Shown: positions 1 through 46,409 of the stretch, in pieces | Layout: every line of letters starts with the position of its first letter | Position numbering within the stretch: position 1 is the stretch's first letter | DNA from: an uncultured Dehalococcoidaceae bacterium | Lineage (GTDB): Bacteria > Chloroflexota > Dehalococcoidia > UBA2979 | DNA: 64,000 nt | Direction: 5' to 3' | Assembly: GCA_964479165.1 (NCBI GenBank) | Contig: CAYZJO010000013.1 | Location: 9,386 to 73,385, forward strand | Translations under genes and position numbers: made by a program | The notes under the pieces: model-generated | Told to the model about the DNA's origin: nothing | The model's input: only the letters and a program-made list of their open reading frames with translations | The model's database searches: none

Positions 1-616
1 CGCCCGGGTCTCCGCGTGTGGCGGCCGCTGCGCCCGCTTGCTCGCAAAGGTCCGTACTGAACGCCTCGAACCAGCGGCCGAGGTGACTCTCGAGGAATGT
101 GCGCGATGCGTCCCGGCAGACCGCTGCCCGGTCGTCCCACCCCTGCACGAGTGCGTACGCCTCACGGCGAGTCGCCAGCGCCACAAACTCGAGCTCCGTG
201 CAGACGTCGTCGGGAGTGGTTGGATGCTGTGACGACACGCGCAACCCGAACGCAGCATAGAAACCGGCAATGTCCGCGAGCCGGGCGGCCTTTGCGAAGG
301 GGTCGCGCACGTACTCGGTCTCGTGAGGCGAGCAGAGCACGGAGGCCTCGAAGAGCACGAAGTGGACGGGGGCGAGGCGCTCGGCGTCGATGTCCTTCCG
401 CGCCCGGCGCAGCACGCGCACCTCCCGCGCGATGCCGAGCCTCGACACGATGGGGTGAGTCGCGAGGTCGGGCAGGAGCACATCGAGCCGCTCGAGCACC
501 TCCGGACGTGGCTCGGCGAGGCTGAGCGCCATCGCCTCGTACAGCGCGGAGCGACCGAGCAGCAGCTGGATCTCTGGCTGCGCGAGCACCTCGGGCGAAA
601 CGAGGGATGAAGTCAT
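1..616 (-). CDS. TorD/NarJ-like redox enzyme maturation chaperone (delta subunit). The C-terminus is truncated by the window edge.
   Basis: Manual translation of the reverse strand from ATG at 616: MTSSLVSPEVLAQPEIQLLLGRSALYEAMALSLAEPRPEVLERL...HFVLFEASVLCSPHETEY...ADIAGFYAAFGL...DDVCTELEFVALATRRE, which is typical of the nitrate-reductase delta/TorD family. It lies immediately downstream of the gamma subunit with a 1-nt spacer. It is absent from the ORF track because it has no stop inside the window. Confidence 0.6.
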   Translation of the reverse strand, partial: MTSSLVSPEVLAQPEIQLLLGRSALYEAMALSLAEPRPEVLERLDVLLPDLATHPIVSRLGIAREVRVLRRARKDIDAERLAPVHFVLFEASVLCSPHETEYVRDPFAKAARLADIAGFYAAFGLRVSSQHPTTPDDVCTELEFVALATRREAYALVQGWDDRAAVCRDASRTFLESHLGRWFEAFSTDLCEQAGAAAATRGDPG

Positions 617-617
617 C

Positions 618-1532
618 TCAGGCCTCAATTTCCAGCGGGGTCCAGTCGGCCCACTGCTTTCGTGCCCCGCGATTGCCGTGGGAACCGTTCCAGACGGCGA
701 AGGCGACGTTGGTCGTGATTCCTGGCGCGAGGCTGGTCTTGTCCGCGCCCGGCTGCAACGGCGTCGCGATGACCACACGCCAGCCCTTGCCCGTGAACAC
801 GCCTCGTCCGGTCGCTGTCTGCTCGGCGTGAGCGGTGAGGCTCCCGAATCCCTCCGCGACCAGGTCCTCCACGGGGGAGGTCCGGTCCCGACGAGCCATC
901 GGATTGCCGGCGACGAGCGCGGGGTAGAACTGCCGCGCCGCCTCCTCGCCCATCAGGGCCTCCGGAGAGGCGTCGTGGTACATGTTGGGGAAGGCATCGC
1001 GTACGCCGCGCCGGCCCTGGTCGACGTCGACCTGCCACGCAGCGCGCCACTGCATGATGTGCACCGGCTGGGTCGCAGCGCCCATCGTGACTGCCACCGG
1101 CGCGGCAGGGTCGACGGGGAGCTGCACCGCCACAGCGTCGCGGAACCGGGCCATCACGTCGACGCTGTCCTCGTCAGCGTCGTCCCACTCGATGAGGAAC
1201 GCCATCGTCTCGCCGTTGTGGAGTGCGCGTACCGAGACCTCCGGGACGGCCAGCTCCGAGACGGACGGCGTCGTGAGGTTCTGCACGCGCATCTGGACCG
1301 GCCACGCTCGCACTCGCGCCCAGGCTCGATCGGCCGGATCAAGCGGGAGGTCGCCTCGCGCGCGGCGTGCGACGAGCTGGTTCGACGGCTCGCTGCGGCG
1401 TAGCTCGAGGATCCCGATGCTCGCCGCGACGGTCGTGCTGGCAGCCACGGCCGCGGCCGCCTTCACGAAGCCACGACGGCTAACCGTCTCGGGACGCTCG
1501 ATGCGGCGCTCCTGTTCCTGGTCGGTGGACAT
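618..1532 (-). CDS. Haem-b gamma subunit of a type II DMSO-reductase-family enzyme (EbdC/NarC/NxrC-like, EB_dh domain).
   Basis: 304 aa with a Tat-like N-terminus (RRGFVKAAAAVAAS). Strong RBS (GTAAGGAGG) before ATG at 1532. It is third in an alpha-beta-gamma-delta order. No transmembrane NarI-type architecture is evident. Confidence 0.6.
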   Translation of the reverse strand: MSTDQEQERRIERPETVSRRGFVKAAAAVAASTTVAASIGILELRRSEPSNQLVARRARGDLPLDPADRAWARVRAWPVQMRVQNLTTPSVSELAVPEVSVRALHNGETMAFLIEWDDADEDSVDVMARFRDAVAVQLPVDPAAPVAVTMGAATQPVHIMQWRAAWQVDVDQGRRGVRDAFPNMYHDASPEALMGEEAARQFYPALVAGNPMARRDRTSPVEDLVAEGFGSLTAHAEQTATGRGVFTGKGWRVVIATPLQPGADKTSLAPGITTNVAFAVWNGSHGNRGARKQWADWTPLEIEA

Positions 1533-1569
1533 GACTGCCTCCTTACTCGAGGCATCGGCACTGGCTCTA

Positions 1570-2700
<1,131 letters not shown>

Positions 2701-2745
2701 TCGGTTGCCTCATCTCTATCGAGGGGCGCGTGGCGTCACCTGCGG

Positions 2746-5700
2746 CTATGCCTGGTAGAAGGCGCCGCTGAGGTACTGCTTCATCAGATCGGACTCGTAG
2801 CCCGCGCGGACTCCGTTCCGCGCGGGCGCCCAGAGGCCGCCCTCGGGCGCGCCGTCCTCGGCTCGCTCGAGCTTGATGAACGACTCCTTCGGCGCGCCGT
2901 TCGCGCAGTGGACGTCGCTCTCGAAGCCCTTGCCAAGTTCCTGGCCGAAGAACGGCTTGCGGACGAGGGTGTCGGTGAGCAGCGTGGGCCGAAGCCACGC
3001 GCGCACGCCGCTCTGATGGCTGCCGTGGCGGAACATCGCCTGGTACCCGGTCTCGGGCGTCTTCGCGAGTCCGTCCGCTCGCTCGAGGGCGCCGCGCACC
3101 GAGCCGCGCGTGGCGACGTACATGTTGTAGTACATGCGGATCACGCCGGGCTGCATCGCGTTCTGGTAGCGGGCGCGAGCCATGCCCCGAGAGACGAGGT
3201 AGTCCTCGTCACCCTCCTTCCAGCCTCGGTACGGGCGGTCGGACGGGTCCGCGTCGAACCAGACGTAGTCGCCGTCGTCGATCCCGAGGGCCTGTCCGTC
3301 CTCCGGGCTCAGCTCGAGGTACGCCTCGCCGACCCAGGGCGTCCGTTTGTCGTGCCGGTAGGCGTCGCCGAAGGGGCCGAAGAGCATGCTCATCCAGTCG
3401 AGGTCGACGGGCGTGCTGTGCGCGCCGTGGCGGTACTTTGGCGTCATGAAGAGGAAGCGGAACCGATCGTCCGCCGCGGTCAGCGGGTGAACGGTCCCCT
3501 TCAAGTCGGACCACGCCTTCACGACGTTACGGATCTGCCGCACCTCTGTGGAGAGGTCGTCGAGTGACAGTCCGTACTCGAGAGGTCCCGCCGGCGCGAT
3601 CAGCGGATGTGGCCGGCCGTGGATCACGTTCGGCTCGTAGAACGTCGAGTCGACCGGCTCCCGGAAGACAGGGAGGTTCTCGCCGTACTCGAGGAACTCC
3701 GGCTCGTCGCGATAGAACTCGAGCCGTCCCGAGCGGTTGTACCAGGGCTTGCTCTCCTGCCGCTGCTCCCAGCCGCCGTGGCGCGGGTAGGTGCGGAAGT
3801 TCATGAGGGCAGGGATGCCCTGCTGCGCCCGTTGCTCGAGTTCGAGCACGTCGTATCCGCGCGTGGTGCTCGACGCCGAGAAGATGCGCTGGAGGTACAC
3901 CTCGTCGCGGCCATCGAGGAGGAACCTCCAGTAGTCCCGGAAGCGCGACTCTCCTGTGTGCTCAGCGAGCTTCTCCGAGATGCCCGCCATGACCTCGGCA
4001 TCCCCGCGCGTGTCGTAGATGCGGTCCAGCGGACTCCGCGGCGCCATGTGCAGGAACGAGTTCGTGCACGACCCGGTCGCGTCGAGGTTCTTCCGTTCGC
4101 CCCAGGAGTCGACGCCGAAGACGATGTCGGCGTACTCGCACGACGCGGTCCACCACCACTCGTTGACAAAGATCGCCTCGATGCCGGGCAGCGTGTTGTG
4201 CACCACGTCGTGGTGCCACTTCGCGTTGCCGAGCAGCGAGTTGGAGTTGCCGAAGAGCATCGCCTTCGTCGGCGTCGGCATGTGTGTCTCGCCGGTGAAG
4301 TTCTTTGTGCCGCCTCGCAACGGCCGGTCCCCGTAGTTGTAGAAGTGCGCTGACTCGCCCTTGTAGTACGACCCGATAGCCGCGGGCTGCGTCGGGTCGA
4401 GCTGGGGATTGAACGGGTCTTCTTTGATCCACTGCGGGATGCCGTTGAAGATCGAGCCGCGGTAGTTGCCCGCGTAGGCCCCGACGTTCCCTCCGATGTG
4501 GCCCACATTGTCGGTCAGCGCTGCCAGCAGGAAGATCGCGCGATCCTTGAGGTCGGCGTTGAAGTAGTGGTTCGGCCCCATCCCCGTGGCGAGCAGCGAC
4601 TTCCCTCTCGCCGCGGCGATCTGCTTCGCGAGGCTCTCGATAGCTGCGGGCGGCGCCCATGTCACCTCGGAGGTCGTCGCGAGATCGAAGTTCTCGTCAA
4701 GGTAGCGTTTGACCTGGCCGAATACGGGCTGCACGGAGACCTGCGAGCCGTCCAGAAGCGTGACTGCGAACTCCCCCTCCAGTGCCGGTTCAACGCCGGT
4801 CTCACGGAAGCGGTCACCCACCTGGTCGCGGGTCACCGGGACGGCCTCACTCGTCCGCTCGTCCCAGACCATGAAGTCGCCCCACTCGGCGCGGAGCGAC
4901 TCGGACACATACTGCGTTCCCTGCAGTGCAGGCGCCGGTAGCCGTGTGCCACCGGGAACGACCTGTACGAAGTTGTCGAGCGGAGCAGGTTCGTAGTCTT
5001 CGACCACGTCGCGCGCGTTCAGGAGCTGGTGCGTGTCCATGCGCACGAGGAGCGGTAGGTCGGTCCACGCCTTGATGTGGTCTTCGTCGTGGAGGCCGTT
5101 CGCGAGGATGTATTGCGCGCAGCCGAGGGCCAGCGCCGCGTCGGTCCCCGGCCGGATCATGATGACCTCGTCGGAGCGGTTGGATGTCGACTGGTAGTCC
5201 GTGGAGACGTTGATGATGCGCGTGCCCTTCTGACGCGCCTCGGAGAGCCAGTGGCCGTCCGGCATCTTCGTGGAGATCCAGTTCATCCCGAAGGTCACGA
5301 CCAGGTCGGCGTACTCCGGCGCGAAGAGGTCGAACTCCACCGTTTGATGCCCGGTCACCATCGGGTGTCCGGGCGGCAGGTCGGTGTGCCACGTGTATGA
5401 GTCCCACCCGCGACCGCCGAGCGCCTCGTCGGGGCCGACACCCCGGATGTGGTCATCCAGCAGCCCGAGCATGTTGGCGAAGCGGTAGAAGCTGTAGATG
5501 CGGTAGATGCCGAGGAGCGGCATGCCGCCTCGCACCTTGATGACCTGCGTCCCCGCCTCGTGCGCTGCCTCCACCATCGCGGGGTCGTACCCCTGCGCTG
5601 TGAGCCGCGCGGCGCCCTCCGCGCCCGAGTATGTGCGCGCGATATCGAGGTAGGTGCGCGCCGCGAGGTCGAAGGCCTCGTCCCAGGGGATCTTCACCCA

Positions 5701-6225
5701 CGTGTCGCGCCCGCGCCTCTCCATGTCCTGCAATGGCTTCCCAGTCGCCTCATCGCGGGGGAACCCGGCGTCCGCCCACTCCCTGAACCCGGCGCGCACC
5801 ATCGCCCCACGGACACGCCGGTCGCCGTAGAACTTGCGAGCGAGCGCGAGTCCCTTCTGGCAACCCCTCGGATCCCAGCGGTGTGACGCCTTGTTGCCGT
5901 GGAGGTCGGTGGCCTCGCCGTAGCCATACGTTGGGCTGATGCGCACCACGACGCCGTTCTTCACGTGCGCACGCAGGAGGCAGTTGTGCGTGTCGTTTGG
6001 CGCGCAGGTGAACACGTAGTCGGAGTCCGGCGTGAACAGGTCCCGGTATGCCTGCTCCCAATCGCGGTCCGGGAAAATGGTGAACGGGTCCGTGATCGCG
6101 ACAGGCTGACTGGCCTCGAGATGCCACGGATCGAAGACGAAGACCTCCGAGAGGGCTACGCCCACCCCCGCGGCGGCAGCGCGCCGCAGGAACGAACGCC
6201 GGGAGATGCTGCGTTTCTGCTCCAT
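2746..6225 (-). CDS. Molybdopterin catalytic alpha subunit, Tat-exported, NarG/NxrA-like type II DMSO-reductase family, 1159 aa.
   Basis: True start MEQKRSISRRSFLRRAAAAGVGVALS has a twin-arginine motif. The ORF-track start at 6492 is an upstream in-frame extension. The N-terminal cluster region CAPNDTHNCLLRAHVKNG aligns with the NarG FS0 / VKNG region. The size is near that of NarG (1247 aa). It is followed by the beta, gamma and delta genes. Confidence 0.85.
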   Translation of the reverse strand: MEQKRSISRRSFLRRAAAAGVGVALSEVFVFDPWHLEASQPVAITDPFTIFPDRDWEQAYRDLFTPDSDYVFTCAPNDTHNCLLRAHVKNGVVVRISPTYGYGEATDLHGNKASHRWDPRGCQKGLALARKFYGDRRVRGAMVRAGFREWADAGFPRDEATGKPLQDMERRGRDTWVKIPWDEAFDLAARTYLDIARTYSGAEGAARLTAQGYDPAMVEAAHEAGTQVIKVRGGMPLLGIYRIYSFYRFANMLGLLDDHIRGVGPDEALGGRGWDSYTWHTDLPPGHPMVTGHQTVEFDLFAPEYADLVVTFGMNWISTKMPDGHWLSEARQKGTRIINVSTDYQSTSNRSDEVIMIRPGTDAALALGCAQYILANGLHDEDHIKAWTDLPLLVRMDTHQLLNARDVVEDYEPAPLDNFVQVVPGGTRLPAPALQGTQYVSESLRAEWGDFMVWDERTSEAVPVTRDQVGDRFRETGVEPALEGEFAVTLLDGSQVSVQPVFGQVKRYLDENFDLATTSEVTWAPPAAIESLAKQIAAARGKSLLATGMGPNHYFNADLKDRAIFLLAALTDNVGHIGGNVGAYAGNYRGSIFNGIPQWIKEDPFNPQLDPTQPAAIGSYYKGESAHFYNYGDRPLRGGTKNFTGETHMPTPTKAMLFGNSNSLLGNAKWHHDVVHNTLPGIEAIFVNEWWWTASCEYADIVFGVDSWGERKNLDATGSCTNSFLHMAPRSPLDRIYDTRGDAEVMAGISEKLAEHTGESRFRDYWRFLLDGRDEVYLQRIFSASSTTRGYDVLELEQRAQQGIPALMNFRTYPRHGGWEQRQESKPWYNRSGRLEFYRDEPEFLEYGENLPVFREPVDSTFYEPNVIHGRPHPLIAPAGPLEYGLSLDDLSTEVRQIRNVVKAWSDLKGTVHPLTAADDRFRFLFMTPKYRHGAHSTPVDLDWMSMLFGPFGDAYRHDKRTPWVGEAYLELSPEDGQALGIDDGDYVWFDADPSDRPYRGWKEGDEDYLVSRGMARARYQNAMQPGVIRMYYNMYVATRGSVRGALERADGLAKTPETGYQAMFRHGSHQSGVRAWLRPTLLTDTLVRKPFFGQELGKGFESDVHCANGAPKESFIKLERAEDGAPEGGLWAPARNGVRAGYESDLMKQYLSGAFYQA

Positions 6226-6472
6226 TGCAACCTCACTCGCTCGAACGTCGCGGGCCGCGTGAGGCCGCTCGTTCGTGTGCGCACGTTCACATGAATTCTC
6301 GATCCGGGGCGTTACTCCAGCCGTTACAGAGCCCCGTTCCCACAGTCCCGCCAACCGGGGGACAAACGGCCCTATCTGGGCGTCCGACACCGGAACAGGA
6401 TCAGGGCGATCACGGCCCGTAATCGCGACGAGCGGGGGAGTCGTGGGAGTCGAACGCCTCGTAGACGGAGCG
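6226..6472. promoter_or_regulatory. Divergent intergenic region between the molybdoenzyme operon and the PAS-SARP regulator. It probably holds divergent promoters and operator sites.
   Basis: About 250 bp of non-coding DNA between two divergently oriented starts. No specific motif was identified. Confidence 0.3.
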
Positions 6473-7594
6473 ATGGGGCCTGCGTTCGCCATCGACAGTT
6501 GCGGCCGTGTCGTCGCAGCGAACGCTGCGGTGGGCGAGTTGCTGGGAGCGCACGCGCGCGACCTCGTGGGTCAGCGGTGCAGCGACATCTCGGGCGCGGC
6601 GGACGCCGCCGGGGAGCGCCTCTGCCAGCCCGAGGGGTGCTCCACGCTCGCGTTGCTGGCTTCCGGACGCCCGACTGACCTCCCCTGGTGCTCCTGGATC
6701 CATCCGGATGGCACGCACCTACCGATCTCCGCGACCGCCCTGGCACTCCCTCTCGAGGCACGATCCGACAGCACCGCCGCCGTCATCCTCCTCCACGTCG
6801 GGCCGGGGCCCCTCGACCGGAGACCGGCCGGCCTCCGTGCCGGAGAGCGCGCGATCCGCATCAGCCTCTTCGACAATCCTGCGTGCACCGTGGATGGTGC
6901 GCCGGTTCAACTCCCGCGCCGCCGCGCGCTCGAGGTGCTCGCGCTTCTCGCGTTCGCTCCCGCTGCGGGACTTCACAAGGAACAGATGTGCGACGCGCTC
7001 TGGGCGGAACTGCCAGGGGGCAGCGAGCGAATGCACCTCCGTGTCCTGCTGCACAGCCTCCGGCGATCGCTCGCTTCAGAAGTCATCATCAAGACGCCCC
7101 AGAACCCCGATCGGCTGCAGCTCGCCCCCCGGATCCAAGTTGATGTCCTCGAGTTCACGCAGGGTGTGAGTGCCCTGCGTGCTTCGTTGCTGTCGCCTAC
7201 GACAAGCGTGGCCGAACGACTCGAGCGGGTCGACGCGCTGCTCGCGCTCTACGTCGGCGACCTCGACGATGCCGGCGTCTTCGGTGCGTGGGTCGCGCCG
7301 CACCGCGAGCGCCTCCGCTCGCATTACATCGAGCTCCTTCGGGAGGCGACCCGGCTTGCCGCGGAAGCCCGCGAACCGGACCGAGCGATGGCCTACTGCC
7401 GGCGCGCCGTAGCCGCGGACCCGCTGCACGAAGAGTTCCAGATCGCGCTGATCGCCGCCTACGGGCAGCTCGGGCTGCGTCGAGCTGCGCTCACGCAGTA
7501 CCAGTCCTATCGAAAGGCGCTCACCGCGGATCTCGCGCTCGAACCGTCGATGGCGGTAGAGCGAGCTCTGGGCCTCGCTCTGAGAGCGAGCTGA
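6473..7594 (+). CDS. Transcriptional regulator with an N-terminal PAS-like sensor, an OmpR/SARP-type winged helix and a C-terminal BTAD domain (AfsR/SARP-like).
   Basis: ATG at 6473 (GTG at 6443 is also possible). The PAS-like segment is MGPAFAIDSCGRVVAANAAVGELLG. The winged-helix segment is RISLFDNPACTVDGAPVQLPRRRALEVLALLA. The BTAD-like tail is ALLALYVGDL...EEFQIALIAAYGQLGLRRAALTQYQSYRKALTADLALEPS. The ORF-track N-terminus from 6275 is probably spurious. Confidence 0.6.
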   Translation: MGPAFAIDSCGRVVAANAAVGELLGAHARDLVGQRCSDISGAADAAGERLCQPEGCSTLALLASGRPTDLPWCSWIHPDGTHLPISATALALPLEARSDSTAAVILLHVGPGPLDRRPAGLRAGERAIRISLFDNPACTVDGAPVQLPRRRALEVLALLAFAPAAGLHKEQMCDALWAELPGGSERMHLRVLLHSLRRSLASEVIIKTPQNPDRLQLAPRIQVDVLEFTQGVSALRASLLSPTTSVAERLERVDALLALYVGDLDDAGVFGAWVAPHRERLRSHYIELLREATRLAAEAREPDRAMAYCRRAVAADPLHEEFQIALIAAYGQLGLRRAALTQYQSYRKALTADLALEPSMAVERALGLALRAS

Positions 7595-7607
7595 AGGGAC
7601 ACGCCCG

Positions 7608-8279
7608 ATGACCGCCGGACCCGTACATCCCGCGATCGAGCGCGCGTGCGCCGCCAGCGCCGCGCAGCACAAGCGACTTTGCCCCCGCCAGGTGCTCGGG
7701 GTGCGGATGGGAATCGCCGCCGGACGCGCACTCGACCTCTCGCTCCCCCGCGAAGACAAGCGTCTGCTCCTCTTCGCCGAGACGGACGGTTGCGTCCTCG
7801 ACGGGATCACCGCGGCTACCGGCTGTACGCCCGGACATCGCACGATGCGCGTGGTCGACTACGGACGGGTCGCCGTGACCGGCATCGACCTGGAGACGCG
7901 GCGCGCCGTCCGCGTGGCACCCCGCGCTGGAATCCGGGAATTGGCCACTGCGTACGCTACCGACGGGGCCTCGCGATACGACGCGCAGCTCGTCAGCTAT
8001 CAGCAGGTGCCGGAGCCGCTCCTTCTGACCATCACCCCGGTCCGTCTCACCCTCGACGTCGACGCGCTGCTGGGGCGTCCTGGTGTGCGTGTCGACTGTG
8101 CGCGATGCGGCGAGGAAGTGCTCAACGGCCGCGAGGTGGAAGTCGATGGCGACCTGGTGTGTCCCGGGTGCAGCGGCGCCGCGTACTACGATCCTTGCGG
8201 ACCTCTGGGCGTGTCAGAGATTGGGGCGTCAAGGACCCTAGGAGCGAGCGAGGGATGGTCTCGATGGCTCACGAGGTGA
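7608..8279 (+). CDS. FmdE/FwdE-family protein with a C-terminal zinc ribbon.
   Basis: HKRLCPRQVLGVRMG and ETDGCVLDGITAATGCTPG match FmdE-domain signatures. The C-terminus has CARCGEEV...CPGC. ATG at 7608. Confidence 0.6.
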   Translation: MTAGPVHPAIERACAASAAQHKRLCPRQVLGVRMGIAAGRALDLSLPREDKRLLLFAETDGCVLDGITAATGCTPGHRTMRVVDYGRVAVTGIDLETRRAVRVAPRAGIRELATAYATDGASRYDAQLVSYQQVPEPLLLTITPVRLTLDVDALLGRPGVRVDCARCGEEVLNGREVEVDGDLVCPGCSGAAYYDPCGPLGVSEIGASRTLGASEGWSRWLTR

Positions 8280-9145
8280 GTCCGGCGGTACCTCCAACCC
8301 GGCGCTACCCGCAAACCGGGGCGTTCGGGACAGGTCCGCCCGTGGGCGCCCCTTTCCCGGCCATGGCGCTGCCGGATCAGCACGGCGGCGCGATGCCGGT
8401 CAGTTGGGGACCGGGCGGACGCCCGACCTTGGTGGTGTTCCATCGGTCTGCACGTTGGTGCACGTTCTGCCGCACGCAGTTGCTCCACCTGCAGCATCAC
8501 CTGCGGGCGTTCGAGGCCGCCGGCGTTGCGCTCGTCGCCATCTCCTACGATCCTCCTGGAGCGCTGGCGGAGTTTGCGGCAGAGAACCGCATCACCTACC
8601 CCCTGCTCTCTGACGAGAGGTCGCAACTAATCTCCCGTCTCGGCATCCTGAACGACCTCGTCCGGCCAGACGAGGAGGTGTATGGCATCCCCTATCCCGG
8701 GGCCTACGCGGTCTCTTCAGAGGGTCGTGTATTGCGCAAGTATTTCTACCGCCACTACCGAGAACGGCCAGCGCCGCTCGGAGTGCTCCACGAGGCGTTC
8801 AACGCCAACGTCAGCCTCCACGCGTGCCTGGGTGCGGACCGACACGACGGCGATGTGTTGGTGAGCGCTCGCCTCGCCGACACCGCCCTCGTTCCATACC
8901 AGCACACACCGCTCTACGTACGCGTGACCGCTCCAGAGACTCGCAGTTTGGAAGTGACAGCCGAGGGGCTTGACGTCGGAGCGCCAGAGCCGTCGATCGT
9001 GCCTGGCGGTGCTGGGTGGAGGGTACCGCTCATGCTACGGAGCTTGGACCATGCGTCCGTAGTCCTGACGATGCGGACCACCGGAAGGGGCGCGGCCCCG
9101 CTCGATCTGAGGCTGCACTTGCCGGTCCTCGAGTTGAGGCGATAG
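8255..9145 (+). CDS. Thioredoxin-fold redoxin (AhpC/TSA or TlpA-like, WCTFC active site) with a C-terminal extension of about 120 aa.
   Basis: ATG at 8255 is preceded by GGAGCGAGCGAGGG. The motif PTLVVFHRSARWCTFCRTQLLHL is seen. It overlaps the FmdE gene end by 25 nt. The upstream part of the 499-aa track ORF (from 7646) is an out-of-frame artefact. Confidence 0.6.
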   Translation: MVSMAHEVSPAVPPTRRYPQTGAFGTGPPVGAPFPAMALPDQHGGAMPVSWGPGGRPTLVVFHRSARWCTFCRTQLLHLQHHLRAFEAAGVALVAISYDPPGALAEFAAENRITYPLLSDERSQLISRLGILNDLVRPDEEVYGIPYPGAYAVSSEGRVLRKYFYRHYRERPAPLGVLHEAFNANVSLHACLGADRHDGDVLVSARLADTALVPYQHTPLYVRVTAPETRSLEVTAEGLDVGAPEPSIVPGGAGWRVPLMLRSLDHASVVLTMRTTGRGAAPLDLRLHLPVLELRR

Positions 9146-9830: not shown

Positions 9831-9987
9831 AGAGTCCTCCAAGACCAGCACTTGGTCCCGCCCTTGTCCCGCCCAAACCGCAGCACAACCCATGGTCAGA
9901 GGTGGCCTGCGGTGTCTCGTCAAAGGCAGATCGCCAGCAAATACAAGGGATTTCGCCACGCGCGACAACGCGCCGCCACGGTCGGTA

Positions 9988-10037
<50 letters not shown>

Positions 10038-10105: not shown

Positions 10106-10468
10106 CTAACCGCCTAGCTCGAATGCCTCTTCCGGAAGGAAGAGGCAGTGGTCGCAGGGCCGTACTCCACATCCGCGAACTCGATTGAGTCGGAGATTGA
10201 TCGTGAGCACCTCCGGCGCCACGGTCTGTTCCTGCACTCGTCGATACGCGTCCCTCGTCGCGCCTGTGGTGTTCTTGATCTCGACGCCGAACTTCGCCAA
10301 GTGATTTTGCACGAACTTAGTCGCCGTCTCGTCGATCTCCTGGAGTACCCCGTCGACACTCAGCAGCGCCGCGACTTCGATGCACACCTCTAGCAGAATT
10401 GCGTTGTCACCAGCCTGCTCCGCTCGATAGGCGTAGTACGCCTTCCCGACACCCTTGTGCGGTGCCAT
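10106..10468 (-). CDS. Hypothetical protein of 120 aa.
   Basis: ATG at 10468 (MAPHKGVGKAYYAYRAEQ...). This stretch has lower GC and protein-like composition. No recognisable domain. Confidence 0.4.
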   Translation of the reverse strand: MAPHKGVGKAYYAYRAEQAGDNAILLEVCIEVAALLSVDGVLQEIDETATKFVQNHLAKFGVEIKNTTGATRDAYRRVQEQTVAPEVLTINLRLNRVRGCGVRPCDHCLFLPEEAFELGG

Positions 10469-10538
10469 TAATCCATCCGGCACCCGTTTGACCTGATCCG
10501 AGTGGCGCTCGAACCTGCCGGAGCGGCGGGAGGGCTCG

Positions 10539-11570
10539 ATGCTGGTGGTCCTGAGATACATGCTGAGCGCCTGGGGAAAGGTCGCGCTCGAGCGACGTGA
10601 GCTGGTGCTCGAGAACATTGCGCTCCGTCACCAGCTTGAGGTGCTATCGCGGGCTCGCCGCCGAGCCGCCTTACAGCCAGCGGATCGCTACTTCTGGTCG
10701 TCGCTCGCACGGCTCTGGCCAGCCTGGAGAAAGCACCTGGTGATCGTCCAACCCGACACCGTCGTGCGCTGGCACCGCCTGGGCTGGCGACACTACTGGC
10801 GCTGGCGCAGTCGGTCGCCGAGGCGCGGCAGGCCACGGCTCGACGCCACGATCGCGGCTGAGATCCAACGGATGACTGCGGAGAACCCGCGCTGGGGACA
10901 CATGCGCGTACTCGGCGAGCTGCGCAAACTCGGATGCCGTGTCAGCCTGCAGACTGTCCGCCGCTACCGCAGGGACGTGCCGCGTGACCCGTCTCCCAGC
11001 TGGCGCACGTTCCTCGAAACCCACCGCCCAGAGATCTGGGCGTCCGACTTCTTTACGGTGCACACGCTCTGGTTCCAGACGCTCTACGTCTTCTTCTTCA
11101 TCGCGCACGACCGCCGCGCGGTGATGCACGTCAACGTCACGTCGCATCCGAACGCAACGTGGGTGTGGCGTCAGCTCATCAATGCGACGCCGTGGGGAGC
11201 GAGCCCACGCTTCCTGATCCGCGATCGAGACCGCTCGTACGGAGGGGAATTCGTTGCGCGTGCCCAGCGTATCGGCATCCAGACAGTGCTCACGCCGATC
11301 GCGACGCCGCAGGCCAACGCTATCGCCGAACGGCTGGTTGGCACGTTCCGGCGCGAATGCCTGGACCACATCATCGTCGTGAACGAGCAGCACCTGCGCC
11401 ATGTGCTCCGCGAGTTCGTCCGCCACTACAACACCGCACGCCCACACCGGGCGTTGGTACTGGAGGCTCCCGAACCGAAAACGGGTCCACGCGTCGACGA
11501 GTCAGGCCCAATCATCAGCCGTCCCGTACTCGGTGGATTGACCCACGAGTACGAGCGAACAGCGGCCTGA
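10539..11570 (+). CDS. DDE transposase with an rve integrase core and an N-terminal LENIALRHQLEVL / RWHRLGW / ENPRWGHMRVLGELRKLG region (IS481/IS3-superfamily-like).
   Basis: 343 aa. The catalytic region reads HTLWFQTLYVFFFIAHDRRAVMHVNVTSHP...IRDRDRSYGGEF...TPQANAIAERLVGTFRRECLD. The element ends are not resolved. Confidence 0.85.
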   Translation: MLVVLRYMLSAWGKVALERRELVLENIALRHQLEVLSRARRRAALQPADRYFWSSLARLWPAWRKHLVIVQPDTVVRWHRLGWRHYWRWRSRSPRRGRPRLDATIAAEIQRMTAENPRWGHMRVLGELRKLGCRVSLQTVRRYRRDVPRDPSPSWRTFLETHRPEIWASDFFTVHTLWFQTLYVFFFIAHDRRAVMHVNVTSHPNATWVWRQLINATPWGASPRFLIRDRDRSYGGEFVARAQRIGIQTVLTPIATPQANAIAERLVGTFRRECLDHIIVVNEQHLRHVLREFVRHYNTARPHRALVLEAPEPKTGPRVDESGPIISRPVLGGLTHEYERTAA

Positions 11571-11858
11571 TGGAATAATGGCACCGCACAGCTCTGCGCC
11601 TGTCGATACGCCGGCTCCAGTACCCACGAGTGCTCACAGCCCCCTCCTCTAGATTGGCGGACCTGACCTAGGGAAAGGGATACGGTAATCACGATTGTTC
11701 AACAACAAAACGAATGCGCACACAAGCACGTTCGGTCGGTTGACCACGACGTTGTGATAGTGATCGGGTCGCGGGGCGACGCTCCGCCTTGGATCGACTG
11801 TTCGAGCGCTCACTCGCGGCCGGACGCGACAGCCGCGAAGCCTCCACTCCGATCTGCC

Positions 11859-12907: not shown

Positions 12908-13046
12908 CGCCCCCTCCTCTACGGAGTACTTCCGAGCGGCGTGAGAGACGCCCGGAAATGGATCGTACGGATGGCGTCAGATCGATACCGGACGACGCTC
13001 GTGGCTCTGCGCCGTGCGTCCCGACTTCGGGCAGAGCGCCAGCGGC

Positions 13047-14028
13047 TCATCCATCCTCCCGCACGACTTCGCGCGGGTCCTTGTCGGGTCGCAGCCCTTT
13101 GAACGAGGGATGGCGCAGCTGCCCGGTGCGCGAGGTCCACTCGGCGAACTCGACGTCGCACACGAGTCGCGGCTTGACGAAGCGCGATTCGCGCGGCACC
13201 TCGCCACCAGCGAACGGGCTCGTCTCGCGCGCGGGGCGGGCCCAGCAACGCTTCGAGCTCGCCGAGTGTGCGCTCGCTGAAGCCCGTCCCGACCTTGCCG
13301 GCCGAGACGAGGTGATCCCCGTCGTAGGTCCCGATCACGAGCGCGCCGATCTTGCCCGAGCGCGTGCCTTCGCCGGGCACCCAGCCGCCAATGACGAACT
13401 CCTGGCGTTGCTGGTTCTTGATCTTGAGCCAGGTACCGGAGCGCTTTCCCGGCTCGTAGCGGCTGGTGAGCCGCTTCGCGATCACGCCCTCCATGCGTTG
13501 CTCGCGACTCGTCGCCAGGATGAGATCGCCGCCGCCCTCCGACTGTGGCGGCGTGTGCCAGTGCGAGCCGTCGAGTTCGAGCGCCTCGAGCACGGCGCGA
13601 CGTTCGGCGTAGGGCTCGGCGAGGAGCGAGCGCCCGTCGAGCGCGAGCACGTCGAAGATCATGTAGGCGATCCCGACGCCAGGATCGGCTGTGACACGCT
13701 TACCGCCCTCGAGTCCCATGCGCTGATGCAACGCCTCGAACGTCGGTCGCCCGCTCGCGTCGAAGCCCACAATCTCGCCGTCGAGGAGCGCGCTGTGCGC
13801 GCCGAGAGCCGCCGCGAGCGCGCGCAGCTCGGGGTAGCGCCCCGTCATGTCGAGGCGGTTGCGACTGGCGAGGGAGAGTGCGCCACGCTCGATCCGGGCG
13901 ACCGCGCGGATGCCGTCCCACTTGAACTCAAAGCCCCAGCGCCCATCGTCGCGCGGCAACTCCGGCACCGAGCTTCGCGAGCATCGGCACGAGCGGCCGC
14001 GGCTGCGCGGGATCTCCCCGGCGAGCAT
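13047..14028 (-). pseudogene. ATP-dependent DNA ligase (LigC/LigD ligase-domain type) with an apparent 1-nt frameshift near 13215-13235.
   Basis: Start MLAGEIPRS at 14028. Motifs are FEFKWDGIRA (KxDG), EGVIAK and LKIKN. Frame 1 ends ...GELEALLGPPRARDEPVRWW and then becomes Arg-rich nonsense down to 12919. The next frame reads SPFAGGEVPRESRFVKPRLVCDVEFAEWTSRTGQLRHPSFKGLRPDKDPREVVREDG-stop (stop at 13047-13049), which is the canonical ligase OB-fold C-terminus. Confidence 0.6.
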
Positions 14029-14573
14029 TAGGTGGTGGGGCTGGGTTGTCTCGCACAAGCTGATCGTAAGGTCTGCTCGGCGGGAGGCGGTCGTGCTACC
14101 GTCGCCCCCCGGTCGCCTGCGGCCCTGCACAGCAACAGTCCTGCGGGCGGCCGGGACGACGGCGGGATAGACGTGCGCGACGCCGGTGGGGCGTTGTGCA
14201 GCGATGAACCGGACGGCGAGGTTGTAGTGAACGCGCCGCATTACACCCCTGCCGAGGTCGAGTCACTCGCTGCGGCGCTCATGCTCCTGCGCGCCATGGT
14301 CGACGCGGAGACGGGGGGCACTGCTCGAGGGTGCTGCACAGGCGCTCCGGCAGCAGGCCGCGCGGATCGCGACGCTCGAGCGAGTCACGCCTCAATGAAC
14401 GAATGGCAGCGCCTGCAACGGATTGCGGACAACGCGCAGCTCGAGGCGCAGTCGGCACGACGTGGCATCCGCAACGTCTTCCTCTTCGGCCTTGCCTTTT
14501 GGACCACGATCGCCGCGATCCTGGTCGCCGTATGCCGCTGACCCCTCGGAGCTAGGGACCAACCGCCTCCAAA

Positions 14574-16072: not shown

Positions 16073-18256
16073 TCACGGGCGTGAATGCATTGGTGCTGCT
16101 TGGGGGTCACTTGGACCTTCGATCGAAATGCGCGGCAGGCGCCGCTCCAGCCACGAGGGCAACCACCAGTTCCAGTCGCCCATGAGCTCCATCGTCGCCG
16201 GCACCAGCAGCAGTCGCACGACCGTCGCATCGACCAACACGGCGATCGCGAGCCCGAGCCCGAACTCCTTCACGACGCGCTGATCGTTCATCACAAAGCT
16301 CAGAAACACCATGATCATGATCGCTGCCGCCGCCGTGATGACGCTCGCGGTTGCAGCCAACCCGCGTGCGACTGACTTCGCGTTATCACGCGATGCCAGG
16401 TACTCCTCGCGAATCCGGCTCACGAGGAAGACCTCGTAGTCCATGGAGAGGCCGAAGAGCACCGCAAAGAGCATCATCGGCAGGAACGACTCGACCGGAG
16501 CGGACTGGTCGACGCCGACGAAGCGCATCCCCCAGCCCCACTGGAACACCGCCACCACGAACCCGTACGCCGCCCCGATCGAGAGCAGGTTCATTAACGC
16601 CGCCTTCAGCGGGATCAGCAGCGAGCGGAAGACCGCCACCAGCAGGAGGAAGCTCACCCCAATCACGAGGCCGAAGAACAGCGGCAGCCGGGAAGCGATC
16701 CGATCCGCGATGTCAATCGCCCGTGCGGTCGCACCTCCCACGTAGACGCGGGCGTCCGTGTCCGCAGCGTCGAGGGCCGCCGGGAAGACCTGGTCGCGCA
16801 GCTCATGCACCAGGTCCGCGGTCTCGCCTGACTGCGGCGATGTCGCGGGGACCACCGAAAACACGCTGACGTCCCCGGCCGGACCGGCCAACGGTGCGCT
16901 CACCGAGGCCACGTTCGGCAGGCTCGCGATCGCGTCGCGCACCTGTGCCGCTTCCGGCTGCGAGGCACCCTCGATCACGACCTGTAGGGGCCCGTTCATA
17001 CCGGGGCCAAAGGCATCCGCCAGGATGTCGTACGCGCGTCGGGTCGTGGAGCTCGTCGGATTGTTCCCGGCGTCCGCTGTGCCGAGGCGCATGTCGAGCA
17101 CCGGGACGCTCAGCGCCGCCAGAATCGTCACGCTCACGCCAAAGAAGACGTAGGGCCGGCGCATGATCGCCAGCCCGAGTGCGTACCAGCGACTCTGCTC
17201 GTGCGCAACTGCGGGCCGCCTCGAGCCGCGTGGTCCGCCAGAACCCGCGATCCGCGGGCCAATAATGCCCAGGAGCGCCGGCAGCAGCGTCAGCGCCGCC
17301 AGCACAGCGACGGCGACCATCGCGGCAGCGGCGACGCCGAGCCAGCCAACGAAGGGGATCCCCATCAGGCCCAGCCCGAGAAGCGATGTGATCACCACCC
17401 CGCCCGCGAATGCGACAGACTTCCCCGCCGTCGCGAGCGCCGCGCCCACGGCCGCGGCGATGTCGCGCCCCATGAGGACGTTCTCGCGATGGCGCGCCAC
17501 GATGAACAGCGCGTAGTCGATGCCGACGCCCAGCCCGAGCATCGCCGCGATGTTGGGCGCGAACTTGCTGAGGTCGATTGCGGCCGTCATCGCGAAGATC
17601 ACCGCGAACCCGACCGCGAGGCCCGACACCGCGCTCACCACCGGCAGTACCGTGGGCATGAGCGCTCGGAACAACACGTAGAGGATGAGAAGCGCGGCCA
17701 TCAGGCCGAGGACGGTCGACTCGTTCGGCCCCTCGCGCTCCAGTGCCGCCGGGACCGGACCACCGAGCTCGACCGTTAGCGCACTCGAGCGGGCGGCCCC
17801 GGCGAGCCCCTCGAGCGCCTCGGTGGCCTCGGCCGGGACATCGTCGGCGCCCTGCGCGAACTGCACGCGCATCAGCGCCACGGTGCGATCAGCCGACACG
17901 ATCGCGTTTGGCTGTGCGAACGGCGAAGCCACGCCGACGACCCCAGGGAGGGACGCGACGTCACGCGCAAGCGTCTCGATCGCGGTCCGCGTCTCGTCCG
18001 TGTCGATACCACCCGCGGCTTCGAAGATCACATCGGCGTAGTCGCCCGAGCGCTGCGGGAACGAGCGCTGCAGCACCTCGACCGCCCGCTGCGACTCGGC
18101 GCCGGGGATGGTGAGTGTGTTCGCCGTGCCCACCGAAATCGATCGCGCGGTGAGGCCGAGTGCCGCACCGGCCACAAGCCAGACCGCGACGACCTGCCAG
18201 CGGTACCGGACTGCGCTGCGGCCCCAGCGTTCGAGGAGACTCGCGCTATCGTGCAT
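16073..18256 (-). CDS. MMPL-family RND transporter (MmpL-like).
   Basis: About 727 aa from ATG at 18256 (MHDSASLLERWGRS...; RBS GGAGGAA). Two blocks of multi-TM domains with large periplasmic loops. This architecture is typical of MmpL. Confidence 0.85.
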   Translation of the reverse strand: MHDSASLLERWGRSAVRYRWQVVAVWLVAGAALGLTARSISVGTANTLTIPGAESQRAVEVLQRSFPQRSGDYADVIFEAAGGIDTDETRTAIETLARDVASLPGVVGVASPFAQPNAIVSADRTVALMRVQFAQGADDVPAEATEALEGLAGAARSSALTVELGGPVPAALEREGPNESTVLGLMAALLILYVLFRALMPTVLPVVSAVSGLAVGFAVIFAMTAAIDLSKFAPNIAAMLGLGVGIDYALFIVARHRENVLMGRDIAAAVGAALATAGKSVAFAGGVVITSLLGLGLMGIPFVGWLGVAAAAMVAVAVLAALTLLPALLGIIGPRIAGSGGPRGSRRPAVAHEQSRWYALGLAIMRRPYVFFGVSVTILAALSVPVLDMRLGTADAGNNPTSSTTRRAYDILADAFGPGMNGPLQVVIEGASQPEAAQVRDAIASLPNVASVSAPLAGPAGDVSVFSVVPATSPQSGETADLVHELRDQVFPAALDAADTDARVYVGGATARAIDIADRIASRLPLFFGLVIGVSFLLLVAVFRSLLIPLKAALMNLLSIGAAYGFVVAVFQWGWGMRFVGVDQSAPVESFLPMMLFAVLFGLSMDYEVFLVSRIREEYLASRDNAKSVARGLAATASVITAAAAIMIMVFLSFVMNDQRVVKEFGLGLAIAVLVDATVVRLLLVPATMELMGDWNWWLPSWLERRLPRISIEGPSDPQAAPMHSRP

Positions 18257-18376
18257 CTGTTCCTCCATACGATGCACCCAGCATCGGTGGAGCGGTCTGC
18301 GGCGTCGCCGACTTTTGTCGGCTTGCGTCCCACGCGCTGTCCCATCGGAAGCGAGGCGCCTCGAAATGATCCGCTC

Positions 18377-29474: not shown

Positions 29475-29549
29475 GCGCTGACTATGGCGTACCGCGCTGA
29501 TCGCGGCCAAGCCGAAATATGGCTCGCGGGCGCTCAGTCGCGATCGTCA

Positions 29550-46350: not shown

Positions 46351-46409
46351 TGCGTCTGCTCCCCTCGAGGACCGGGTGTGCCTCTGTAGACGCAGCCGCC
46401 CCTGGCCGA

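What the first reader, a model, noticed from the sequence alone, without database searches (positions are those of the whole stretch)
1..6225. Tat-exported type II molybdoenzyme (alpha-beta-gamma-delta) with a non-canonical FS0 motif
The alpha subunit is NarG-sized, but it is Tat-exported and pairs with an EbdC-type haem-b gamma and a separate TorD-like delta. That arrangement recalls periplasmic nitrite oxidoreductase (NXR) and pNar-type enzymes rather than classical cytoplasmic NarGHI. In NarG the FS0 cluster motif is H-x3-C-x3-C. Here it reads C-x3-D-x3-C (CAPNDTHNCLLRAHVKNG), which would give the proximal [4Fe-4S] cluster a Cys/Asp ligand set. Neither the substrate nor the direction of catalysis can be read from the sequence. 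The operon also lies left of a tRNA-Gly 3' fragment, which could mark an island end.
Basis: partly seen in the sequence, partly recalled or inferred. Interest (0 to 1): 0.75.

Follow-up and report, generated by a model that had tools for sequence, protein, structure and literature searches.

The report
Outward-facing nitrate/nitrite oxidoreductase operon (nxrABCD type)
This is a four-gene operon for a molybdenum enzyme that interconverts nitrite and nitrate on the outer face of the cell membrane of an uncultured Chloroflexota bacterium. Its "odd" iron-sulfur motif is the normal, already crystallised signature of this widespread enzyme group, so the finding is correct but largely ordinary.

Summary
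The minus strand of 1-6225 carries alpha (2746-6225), beta (1570-2700), gamma (618-1532) and a delta cut by the window edge (1-615). Alpha and gamma both carry twin-arginine signals, and the quoted CAPNDTHNC motif is present.

The motif is not an anomaly. It aligns with C67/D71/C75 of Kuenenia NxrA (PDB 7B04), where FS0 was solved as 3Cys/1Asp. It is kept in 120 of 122 close homologues and in all 80 related loci from species-representative genomes.

Alpha is only about 39-42% identical to Kuenenia NxrA, so it lies outside the canonical Nitrospira/Nitrospina/anammox group. It is 58% identical to NxrA of the Chloroflexota nitrite oxidiser Ca. Nitrotheca patiens. My tree places it in the large sister clade, which Kitzinger 2018 describes as mixing nitrite oxidisers with periplasmic nitrate reducers. 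That clade shares the alpha-beta-gamma-delta gene order.

The physiological direction cannot be read from the sequence. I lean towards respiratory nitrate reduction.

One modest new point: in this Chloroflexota subclade the haem-b gamma subunit has its own Tat signal or anchor.

The tRNA-Gly(CCC) 3' fragment is real (9972-10037), but the island idea is untested.

Verdict: new member of a known kind, low-to-moderate interest.

The parts
2746..6225 (-). Alpha (catalytic Mo-bisMGD subunit, NxrA/pNarG-like), 1159 aa
   Evidence: Full-length match to Kuenenia NxrA 7b04_B, E = 8.7e-268. It is 58% identical over its full length to NxrA of Ca. Nitrotheca patiens. Pfam PF00384. TIGR03479 is the best NCBIfam hit but falls below its cut-off.
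6112..6225 (-). Tat signal peptide of alpha (SRRSFLRR motif at residues 8-15)
   Evidence: TIGR01409 scores 24.7 bits against a cut-off of 16.7. An RR motif is present in 115 of 122 homologues. It aligns with the Tat signal of Kuenenia NxrA.
5980..6006 (-). FS0 motif C74-A-P-N77-D78-T-H-N-C82; the fourth ligand is C122 at 5860-5862
   Evidence: It aligns to C67/N70/D71/C75/C115 of Kuenenia NxrA, where the cluster is 3Cys/1Asp in the crystal structure. These are invariant columns in alignment A1 and in 96-98 of 98 sequences.
5380..5382 (-). Asp282, the predicted molybdenum ligand (YTWHTD)
   Evidence: It aligns to Kuenenia Asp275. The column is Asp in 97 of 98 sequences.
1570..2700 (-). Beta (four Fe-S clusters, NxrB-like), 376 aa, no signal peptide
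   Evidence: Matches 7b04_A at E = 9.2e-120 and Fer4_11 at 1e-29. Cys groups read from the sequence are CxxCxxCxxxC, CxxCx4CxxxC, CxxYxxCxxxC (the 3Fe-4S type) and CxxCx11CxxxC. It lacks the 8-residue insertion that Kuenenia has in the last group.
618..1532 (-). Gamma (haem-b subunit, EbdC/NxrC type), 304 aa; haem ligands Met150 (1083-1085) and Lys292 (657-659)
   Evidence: Matches 7b04_C at E = 6e-26, with Met155 and Lys305 of Kuenenia aligned to Met and Lys here. EB_dh at 8.7e-22. Met is kept in 69 of 69 homologous gammas and Lys in 65 of 65.
1410..1484 (-). Gamma's own twin-arginine motif (SRRGFVK) followed by a hydrophobic stretch of about 21 residues: a Tat signal or an uncleaved signal-anchor
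   Evidence: TIGR01409 scores 20.3 bits against a cut-off of 16.7. Pfam TAT_signal E = 0.0047. The motif is kept in every subclade locus that yielded a gamma (15 loci plus the window). Gammas from other lineages have Sec- or lipobox-type N-termini.
1..615 (-). Delta (TorD/NarJ-type cofactor-insertion chaperone), cut by the window edge; its ATG lies 2 bases after gamma's stop codon
   Evidence: PF02613 at 1.7e-15. TIGR03482 is the best NCBIfam hit. The orthologue in L001 is 271 aa.
6275..7594 (+). Divergently transcribed PAS + BTAD (SARP-like) regulator; the true start is probably downstream of 6275
   Evidence: BTAD at 3.3e-16 and PAS_4 at 9.8e-05. It sits in the same position in L001, L002, L004, L005, L006 and L017.
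7608..8279 (+). FmdE-domain protein with a C-terminal Cys-rich zinc-ribbon-like tail; it travels with the operon
   Evidence: PF02663 at 6.7e-24. It is conserved next to the operon in the nearest relatives and in several more distant ones.
9972..10037 (+). tRNA-Gly(CCC) 3' fragment (possible D arm, anticodon arm, T arm, 3' acceptor strand, CCA); not part of the enzyme
   Evidence: Rfam RF00005 scores 23.5 bits against a gathering score of 29, E = 0.25. The sequence was read directly. ARAGORN finds nothing.

Best explanation
The operon encodes an outward-facing, Tat-exported nitrate/nitrite oxidoreductase of the nxrABCD type. It belongs to the large sister clade of the canonical Nitrospira/Nitrospina/anammox NXR. 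My tree shows that this clade holds the NXR of Ca. Nitrotheca patiens. The literature also places there the NXR of Nitrotoga, the periplasmic nitrate reductase of Hydrogenobacter, and many uncharacterised enzymes.

Proposed mechanism:
- Delta, a TorD/NarJ-type chaperone, holds alpha in the cytoplasm until Mo-bisMGD and the FS0 cluster are in place.
- Alpha is exported folded through Tat and carries the signal-less beta with it.
- Gamma is exported, or anchored in the membrane, through its own twin-arginine N-terminus, probably with haem b already bound.
- At the Mo centre (Asp282 as ligand, Asn77 positioning the substrate), nitrate and nitrite are interconverted.
- Electrons pass through FS0 (Cys74, Asp78, Cys82, Cys122), four Fe-S clusters in beta, and the Met150/Lys292 haem b of gamma.
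- From gamma they pass to, or arrive from, a partner that is not encoded in the operon.

Shown here: homology, conservation of the ligands, clade placement, gene order and the signal motifs. Inferred: substrate, cofactor loading, anchoring and direction.

My commitment on direction: the enzyme is probably bidirectional in vitro, like Kuenenia NXR. In this organism it most likely serves as a respiratory nitrate reductase (about 55%) rather than for energy-yielding nitrite oxidation (about 25%).
For: - All three structural subunits have Kuenenia NXR (7B04) as their best solved relative: alpha 8.7e-268, beta 9.2e-120, gamma 6e-26.
- The FS0, Mo, substrate-Asn and haem ligands named in the crystal-structure paper are all conserved.
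- Alpha is 58% identical to NxrA of Ca. Nitrotheca patiens, whose locus has the same alpha-beta-gamma-delta order.
- In the neighbour-joining tree the window, Nitrotheca, Caldarchaeum and Beggiatoa form one clade of 92 sequences with 100% bootstrap support. The Kuenenia clade is separate, also at 100%.
- Identity to Kuenenia is about 39-42%. This is the level Chicano et al. report for Nitrotoga and Hydrogenobaculum.
- Beta lacks the 8-residue insertion, as described for Nitrotoga NxrB.
- Both alpha and gamma pass the Tat model.
- For the lean towards nitrate reduction: the clade contains characterised or observed nitrate reducers (Hydrogenobacter, Methanoperedens, Thermogutta). The record names of the closest relatives (HGW, SURF, AMX-MBFR, Lake Tanganyika 80-120 m) suggest subsurface water, an anammox-type reactor and a lake oxycline; this reading of the names is my inference. 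A PAS-domain regulator sits next to the operon.
Against: - No activity data exist for this subclade.
- The Met/Lys haem b is a high-potential type and would suit nitrite oxidation equally well.
- A cultured-enrichment nitrite oxidiser from the same phylum has a 58% identical enzyme.
- No quinol-oxidising or cytochrome partner is encoded nearby. The remaining 58 kb of the window holds no respiratory genes that would settle the direction.
- The tree is neighbour-joining only, and I could not obtain Nitrotoga or Hydrogenobacter sequences to include.
Confidence: 0.8

Rival explanations
1. It is a dedicated nitrite oxidoreductase, and the host is an unrecognised mesophilic Chloroflexota nitrite oxidiser. 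It would conserve energy from nitrite oxidised outside the membrane, as Nitrotoga and Ca. Nitrotheca/Nitrocaldera do.
For: - 58% identity to Ca. Nitrotheca patiens NxrA and the same operon order.
- A high-potential Met/Lys haem b.
- An outward orientation is energetically favourable for nitrite oxidation.
- The gamma subunit has an RR-plus-hydrophobic N-terminus, as the Nitrotheca gamma does.
Against: - The window's subclade (20 sequences, 100% bootstrap) is separate from the Nitrotheca subclade (9 sequences, 100% bootstrap).
- At least 590 homologous stretches were found in species-representative genomes of many phyla, including several not known to contain nitrite oxidisers.
- Nothing typical of nitrite oxidisers is found in the window.
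Confidence: 0.2
2. It acts on a different substrate (chlorate, perchlorate, selenate, dimethylsulfide, or an alkyl-aromatic compound), as do other type II DMSO-reductase-family enzymes with EbdC-type gamma subunits.
For: The best NCBIfam families are the generic type II subunit models built around Ebd/Ser/Ddh/Clr/Pcr enzymes, and all four hits fall below their cut-offs. No curated NXR model exists to contradict this.
Against: - PcrA, EbdA and NarG are far weaker matches (2e-46 to 3e-31) than NxrA (8.7e-268).
- The substrate-positioning Asn is kept; it is Ile in ethylbenzene dehydrogenase.
- The more distant clusters at 27-33% identity carry an all-Cys or His-type FS0 motif and fall outside the clade.
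Confidence: 0.05
3. It is a classical cytoplasmic NarGHI whose Tat motif is an artefact of the start choice, or whose Asp is a sequencing variant. These are the reader's own refutation cases.
For: None found. The ORF can be extended upstream to an ATG at 6492.
Against: - Homologues start at the same MEQKRSISRR, and 115 of 122 carry the RR motif.
- The Tat HMM is passed.
- There is no NarI; gamma is EB_dh.
- The Asp is invariant in the clade.
- NarG is a weak, partial match.
Confidence: 0.01

Closest known systems
NXR of Ca. Nitrotheca patiens / Ca. Nitrocaldera robusta (Chloroflexota nitrite oxidisers) and of Ca. Nitrotoga: the 'sister clade' nxrABCD enzymes
   Same: - Same clade in the tree.
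- 58% alpha identity to Nitrotheca NxrA.
- Same alpha-beta-gamma-delta operon.
- Tat signal on alpha, the CxPNDTHxC FS0 motif, and a beta without the 8-residue insertion.
- A gamma subunit with an RR motif followed by a hydrophobic helix, as in Nitrotheca.
   Different: - It belongs to a separate, Chloroflexota-dominated subclade.
- The Nitrotheca gamma has an extra N-terminal zinc-ribbon-like segment, and its locus is flanked by multicopper-oxidase genes and a two-component system rather than PAS-BTAD and FmdE.
- No nitrite-oxidising phenotype is known for this lineage.
- I could not obtain Nitrotoga sequences, so that link rests on the literature.
Kuenenia stuttgartiensis NXR-ABC (PDB 7B04) and the Nitrospira/Nitrospina/anammox periplasmic NXR clade
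   Same: - Full-length homology of all three subunits.
- Identical FS0 ligand set (3Cys/1Asp), Mo-ligand Asp, substrate Asn and Met/Lys haem b.
   Different: - Only about 39-42% alpha identity, whereas Kuenenia shares about 60% with the members of its own clade.
- It sits outside that clade, with 100% bootstrap support.
- Beta lacks the 8-residue insertion.
- Gamma has a Tat-type N-terminus.
- No NXR-T and no accessory cytochrome genes lie nearby.
Periplasmically oriented nitrate reductase of Hydrogenobacter thermophilus and the putative pNARs of Methanoperedens and Thermogutta
   Same: The literature places these in the same sister clade and describes them as outward-facing. They provide the precedent that enzymes of this clade work as nitrate reductases.
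   Different: This is a lead from the literature, not a test.
Escherichia coli NarGHI (cytoplasmic respiratory nitrate reductase)
   Same: The same superfamily, Asp as Mo ligand, an FS0 cluster plus a four-cluster beta, and a NarJ-like chaperone.
   Different: - NarG matches only in patches (E about 1e-29 to 3e-31).
- NarG FS0 is His/3Cys.
- NarGHI has no Tat signal, and its membrane subunit is the di-haem NarI rather than an EbdC-type haem-b protein.

Membership tests
Type II DMSO-reductase family (Mo-bisMGD alpha-beta-gamma enzymes with a dedicated chaperone) | Asp side chain as the molybdenum ligand in alpha | tested here: met
   Asp282 aligns with Kuenenia Asp275. The column is Asp in 97 of 98 sequences.
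Type II DMSO-reductase family (Mo-bisMGD alpha-beta-gamma enzymes with a dedicated chaperone) | N-terminal FS0 [4Fe-4S] motif in alpha and a four-cluster beta subunit | tested here: met
   C74/D78/C82/C122 in alpha. Four Cys groups in beta, Fer4_11 at 1e-29, and TIGR03478 as the best hit.
Type II DMSO-reductase family (Mo-bisMGD alpha-beta-gamma enzymes with a dedicated chaperone) | EbdC-type haem-b gamma with Met/Lys ligation, and a TorD/NarJ-like delta | tested here: met
   EB_dh at 8.7e-22. Met150 and Lys292 align to the Kuenenia ligands. PF02613 at 1.7e-15 for delta.
Type II DMSO-reductase family (Mo-bisMGD alpha-beta-gamma enzymes with a dedicated chaperone) | Scores above the curated NCBIfam cut-offs of the TIGR03479/78/77/82 subunit models | tested here: not met
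   All four models are the best hits but fall far below their cut-offs (308 against 985, 262 against 481, 128 against 170, 53 against 152 bits). I understand these models to be built mainly on Ebd/Ser/Ddh/Clr/Pcr-type members, so this shows distance from that subgroup, not exclusion from the broader family.
Canonical periplasmic NXR clade (Nitrospira / Nitrospina / anammox) | Monophyly with, and about 60% alpha identity to, Kuenenia/Nitrospira NxrA | tested here: not met
   About 39-42% identity to Kuenenia NxrA. The cluster representatives that are about 60% identical to Kuenenia (P0125, P0308) group with it and away from the window, with 100% bootstrap support.
Canonical periplasmic NXR clade (Nitrospira / Nitrospina / anammox) | Eight-residue insertion in the last Cys group of NxrB | tested here: not met
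   The Kuenenia NxrB alignment shows the insertion in Kuenenia and a gap in the window's beta. Kitzinger et al. describe the feature.
Sister clade of periplasmic NXR/NAR (Nitrotoga, Ca. Nitrotheca/Nitrocaldera, Hydrogenobacter, Caldarchaeum; nxrABCD) | Groups in a tree with a named member of the clade | tested here: met
   A clade of 92 sequences with 100% bootstrap support contains the window, Ca. Nitrotheca patiens NxrA (P0452), Ca. Caldarchaeum sp. (P0430) and Beggiatoa sp. IS2 (P0364). The tree is neighbour-joining only, and Nitrotoga itself was not available.
Sister clade of periplasmic NXR/NAR (Nitrotoga, Ca. Nitrotheca/Nitrocaldera, Hydrogenobacter, Caldarchaeum; nxrABCD) | Operon order alpha-beta-gamma-chaperone, with a Tat signal on alpha | tested here: met
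   The window has this order. Most of the related loci long enough to show all four genes have it (a few have delta upstream or before gamma), and so does Nitrotheca L082. The order is described for this clade in the literature. Tat model passed.
Sister clade of periplasmic NXR/NAR (Nitrotoga, Ca. Nitrotheca/Nitrocaldera, Hydrogenobacter, Caldarchaeum; nxrABCD) | Nitrite-oxidising and/or nitrate-reducing activity | not testable with these tools
   This needs enzyme assays or physiology.
Cytoplasmic NarGHI | H-x3-C-x3-C FS0 motif, no signal peptide, NarI di-haem membrane subunit | tested here: not met
   The motif is C-x3-D-x3-C, a Tat signal is present, and gamma is EB_dh rather than NarI.
   - Only the fragment lies in the window, and ARAGORN finds no tRNA at all.
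- No tyrosine or serine recombinase turned up among the ORFs scanned.
- GC is even at 0.64-0.69.
- Shared DNA with relatives ends at about 8.2 kb, not at the fragment.
- The left end of the contig could not be fetched.

The most novel reading that the evidence does not exclude
The Chloroflexota-dominated subclade (window, HGW-Chloroflexi-9, AMX-MBFR-23 and MAGs labelled Dehalococcoidia or Anaerolineae) could be a membrane-tethered NXR. Its haem-b gamma would be exported and anchored by its own Tat signal-anchor, an adaptation I would expect in a cell envelope without an outer membrane. These widespread uncultured mesophilic Chloroflexota would then be overlooked nitrite oxidisers in groundwater, lakes and reactors.
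Probability: 0.15. Interest if true: 0.7.

Novelty: new member of a known kind. Interest (0 to 1): 0.3.

Why it matters
The direction of catalysis is unknown for almost all of them.

This locus adds a well-resolved example from a Chloroflexota-dominated subclade of 20 sequences. The subclade has a conserved regulatory module (PAS-BTAD and FmdE) and a Tat-type gamma subunit. Both could guide expression or localisation experiments.

It does not change the picture. The 3Cys/1Asp FS0 cluster and the alpha-beta-gamma-delta layout are already described and, for FS0, solved by crystallography.

Tried and rejected
1. I tried to fetch the window's own contig beyond the left edge, to see the rest of delta and any intact tRNA-Gly. 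The exact-product look-ups for alpha, for P0001 and for gamma were all "not on record".
2. I tried to obtain a Nitrotoga NxrA by searching with the Pseudomonadota homologue L078. It returned only unnamed or MAG entries plus Beggiatoa sp. IS2. The archaeal query L069 then yielded a named Ca. Nitrotheca patiens NxrA and Ca. Caldarchaeum.
3. Lucker 2010 and Spieck 2020 are not held in the library. Their content is cited only through papers that are held.
4. The 50%-identity representatives and their cluster names gave outgroups but few informative names.
5. NCBIfam has no NXR-specific model.
6. I first took "Nitrospira japonica" L032 (58%) as a sign that the window lay in the canonical clade. I rejected this once Kuenenia proved only 43% identical to L032 and about 60% identical to other clusters. 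Several MAG labels in the clade (Bifidobacteriaceae, Heliobacteriaceae and others) look unreliable.
7. Scanning the rest of the window for respiratory or autotrophy genes to set the direction found none.
8. I did not run structure prediction, because the homology to a solved structure is unambiguous.
9. Only neighbour-joining trees with 40-50 bootstrap replicates were possible. No maximum-likelihood software was available.

Full report
**Observation**

The minus strand of window 1-6225 carries four tightly packed genes.
- Alpha: 2746-6225, 1159 aa.
- Beta: 1570-2700, 376 aa.
- Gamma: 618-1532, 304 aa.
- Delta: its ATG at 615 lies 2 bases after gamma's stop codon. It runs off the left edge of the window.

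Pfam assigns Molybdopterin to alpha, Fer4_11 to beta, EB_dh to gamma and Nitrate_red_del to delta. In NCBIfam the best hits for all four are the type II DMSO-reductase subunit models TIGR03479, 03478, 03477 and 03482, but every one falls below its curated cut-off. No NXR-specific model exists.

The alpha N-terminus (MEQKRSISRRSFLRR...) passes the TIGR01409 Tat model with 24.7 bits against a cut-off of 16.7. Close homologues begin at the same residues. The Tat signal therefore does not depend on the start choice. The quoted CAPNDTHNCLLRAHVKNG is present at residues 74-91.

**What the enzyme is**

By sequence search against the PDB, all three structural subunits have the Kuenenia stuttgartiensis nitrite oxidoreductase (7B04) as their best relative.
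- Alpha: E = 8.7e-268 over the full length.
- Beta: E = 9.2e-120.
- Gamma: E = 6e-26.

Perchlorate reductase (2e-46), ethylbenzene dehydrogenase (3e-31) and NarG (about 1e-29 to 3e-31, in patches) are far behind.

Kuenenia NxrA reads CSPNDTHAC at the aligned position. [quoted passage not shown] It adds that the Asp was noted earlier, and that the residues are C67, D71, C75 and C115. Asn70 positions the substrate, Asp275 binds Mo, and Met155/Lys305 bind the haem b of NxrC.

The window has the equivalents C74, D78, C82, C122, N77 and D282 in alpha, and Met150 and Lys292 in gamma.

The motif is kept in 120 of 122 top homologues, in all 80 related loci from species-representative genomes, and in the more distant clusters at 40-43% identity. 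An all-Cys or His form appears only at 33% identity or below. The "non-canonical FS0" is thus the canonical, structurally solved signature of this lineage. It is not a variant or a sequencing error.

**Which clade**

The window's alpha is only about 39-42% identical to Kuenenia NxrA. Kuenenia is about 60% identical to two other cluster representatives (P0125, P0308). These figures match the published ones: about 60% within the Nitrospira/Nitrospina/anammox group, and about 40% to Nitrotoga and Hydrogenobaculum.

A search seeded with an archaeal member returned a named NxrA of the Chloroflexota nitrite oxidiser Ca. Nitrotheca patiens, and also Ca. Caldarchaeum. The window's alpha is 58% identical to the Nitrotheca protein over its full length. 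The Nitrotheca locus has the same alpha-beta-gamma-delta order.

In neighbour-joining trees:
- The window, Nitrotheca, Caldarchaeum and Beggiatoa form one clade of 92 sequences with 100% bootstrap support.
- This clade is sister to the Kuenenia clade, which also has 100% support.
- Inside it, the window sits in a subclade of 20 sequences (100% support) made up mostly of Chloroflexota MAGs. That subclade is distinct from the Nitrotheca subclade.

Beta lacks the 8-residue insertion present in Kuenenia, as reported for Nitrotoga NxrB.

I take this to be the "sister clade" described by Kitzinger et al. By their account it mixes the Nitrotoga NXR with putative and characterised periplasmic nitrate reductases such as that of Hydrogenobacter thermophilus. 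Later work places the Chloroflexota nitrite oxidisers and Ca. Nitrosediminicola in it and describes the nxrABCD layout. Methanoperedens and Thermogutta, both nitrate reducers, are reported to be in the wider group too.

The clade is very large. At least 590 homologous stretches were found in species-representative genomes of many bacterial and archaeal phyla. The nearest relatives are Chloroflexi HGW-Chloroflexi-9 (87%) and Chloroflexota AMX-MBFR-23 (83%).

**Mechanism**

This account is inferred from homology to 7B04 and from established knowledge of type II enzymes.
- Delta keeps alpha export-incompetent until the cofactors are inserted.
- Alpha and beta leave through Tat.
- Electrons run from the Mo centre to FS0 (3Cys/1Asp), through four clusters in beta, to the Met/Lys haem b in gamma, or in the reverse direction.
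- They then pass to, or come from, a partner that is not encoded nearby.

Direction cannot be read from the sequence, and the literature says so explicitly. I lean towards respiratory nitrate reduction for four reasons.
- The clade contains nitrate reducers.
- The relatives appear to come from habitats that are largely suboxic or anoxic.
- A PAS-domain regulator is adjacent to the operon.
- The clade is spread across many non-nitrifier phyla.

Nitrite oxidation remains a serious alternative, given the 58% identical enzyme in a nitrite oxidiser of the same phylum.

**A modest new point: gamma's N-terminus**

Gamma has its own twin-arginine motif (SRRGFVK) followed by a hydrophobic stretch of about 21 residues. 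It passes TIGR01409 with 20.3 bits. The motif is present in every locus of the Chloroflexota subclade that yielded a gamma (15 loci plus the window), whereas other lineages have Sec- or lipoprotein-type N-termini.

The Nitrotheca gamma also has SRRRF followed by a hydrophobic helix, preceded by a zinc-ribbon-like segment. This suggests Tat-dependent export or anchoring of a gamma that already carries its haem. Such an arrangement would make sense if, as I assume, these cells have no outer membrane. This is inference and was not tested.

**Surroundings**

A PAS-BTAD regulator (6275-7594) and an FmdE-domain protein (7608-8279) are transcribed divergently from the operon. They are conserved with it in the nearest relatives. 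DNA similarity to relatives ends at about 8.2 kb. The next gene, an AhpC-like gene, lies on the other side of the operon in AMX-MBFR-23, so the module has been inverted or moved.

The tRNA-Gly(CCC) 3' fragment at 9972-10037 is real but falls below the Rfam threshold and lacks the 5' acceptor strand. A complete IS with 33-nt inverted repeats lies 420 bp to its right. One relative (L005) has an intact tRNA-Gly(CCC) 1.4 kb downstream of delta.

For a tRNA-targeted island, the orientation of the fragment would put the island, and therefore the operon, to its left. However, no second copy, no integrase and no compositional shift is seen. The island idea stays open.

The rest of the window holds copper-homeostasis genes, two-component systems, transposases and transporters. 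It contains nothing respiratory.

**Verdict**

The feature singled out as unusual is known and universal in the clade. This is a new member of a known kind, and interest is low to moderate.

Noticed in passing
window 1410-1484 (-); loci L002-L017, L074, L082: The haem-b gamma subunit carries its own twin-arginine motif plus a hydrophobic stretch of about 21 residues. Every Chloroflexota-subclade locus that yielded a gamma has it; other lineages have Sec- or lipobox-type N-termini. The Ca. Nitrotheca patiens gamma has SRRRF plus a helix, preceded by a zinc-ribbon-like segment. This may be a Tat-dependent membrane anchor.
   Followed up: partly
window 6275-8279 (+): A PAS-BTAD (SARP-like) regulator and an FmdE-domain protein with a Cys-rich C-terminus are transcribed divergently from the operon. 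They travel with it in the nearest relatives, and FmdE homologues also sit next to the operon in some more distant loci (L008-L010, L025, L053, L074, L075). Their role is unknown.
   Followed up: partly
window 9972-10037 (+); L005 15647-15721: The tRNA-Gly(CCC) 3' fragment lacks its 5' acceptor strand. A relative has an intact tRNA-Gly(CCC) 1.4 kb downstream of delta, on the operon's strand. In the window the fragment lies on the other side of the operon and on the opposite strand to it, which does not fit a simple attL/attR pair.
   Followed up: partly
window 8240-9145 (+) against L006 18412-19296: The AhpC/TSA-like gene directly follows FmdE here. In Chloroflexota AMX-MBFR-23 it lies beyond delta, on the other side of the operon. 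The FmdE-to-delta module is therefore inverted or relocated between close relatives.
   Followed up: partly
window 10456-11590: A complete insertion sequence: 33-nt inverted repeats (85% complementary) bracket an rve_3/HTH_32 transposase gene (10497-11570).
   Followed up: partly
window 29482-30438 (+) and 30732-31379 (-): Two IS240-type DDE transposase ORFs lie close together on opposite strands, and a PIN-domain gene sits at 24004-24441. This stretch looks rich in mobile and accessory genes.
   Followed up: no
window 1570-6225 (-): Third-position GC of beta (0.92) and alpha (0.87) is higher than in most other ORFs of the window (0.72-0.84), while overall GC is even. This could reflect high expression or a foreign origin.
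   Followed up: no
window 42909-47732: A copper-homeostasis-like cluster: DUF305 protein, P-type ATPase, ECF sigma factor and a cupredoxin/plastocyanin-like protein. The cupredoxin is a conceivable high-potential electron carrier, but here it sits with metal-resistance genes.
   Followed up: no
window 12922-14262 (-), 16076-18715 (-): An ATP-dependent DNA ligase gene and an MMPL-family transporter gene lie in the variable region to the right of the IS.
   Followed up: no
loci L032, L038, L052, L054, L023: Several MAGs carrying clade members have surprising taxonomic labels (Nitrospira japonica, Heliobacteriaceae, Bifidobacteriaceae, Thermotogae). The 'Nitrospira japonica' copy is only 43% identical to Kuenenia NxrA, so it is not a canonical Nitrospira NxrA. 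The labels or the binning may be unreliable.
   Followed up: partly
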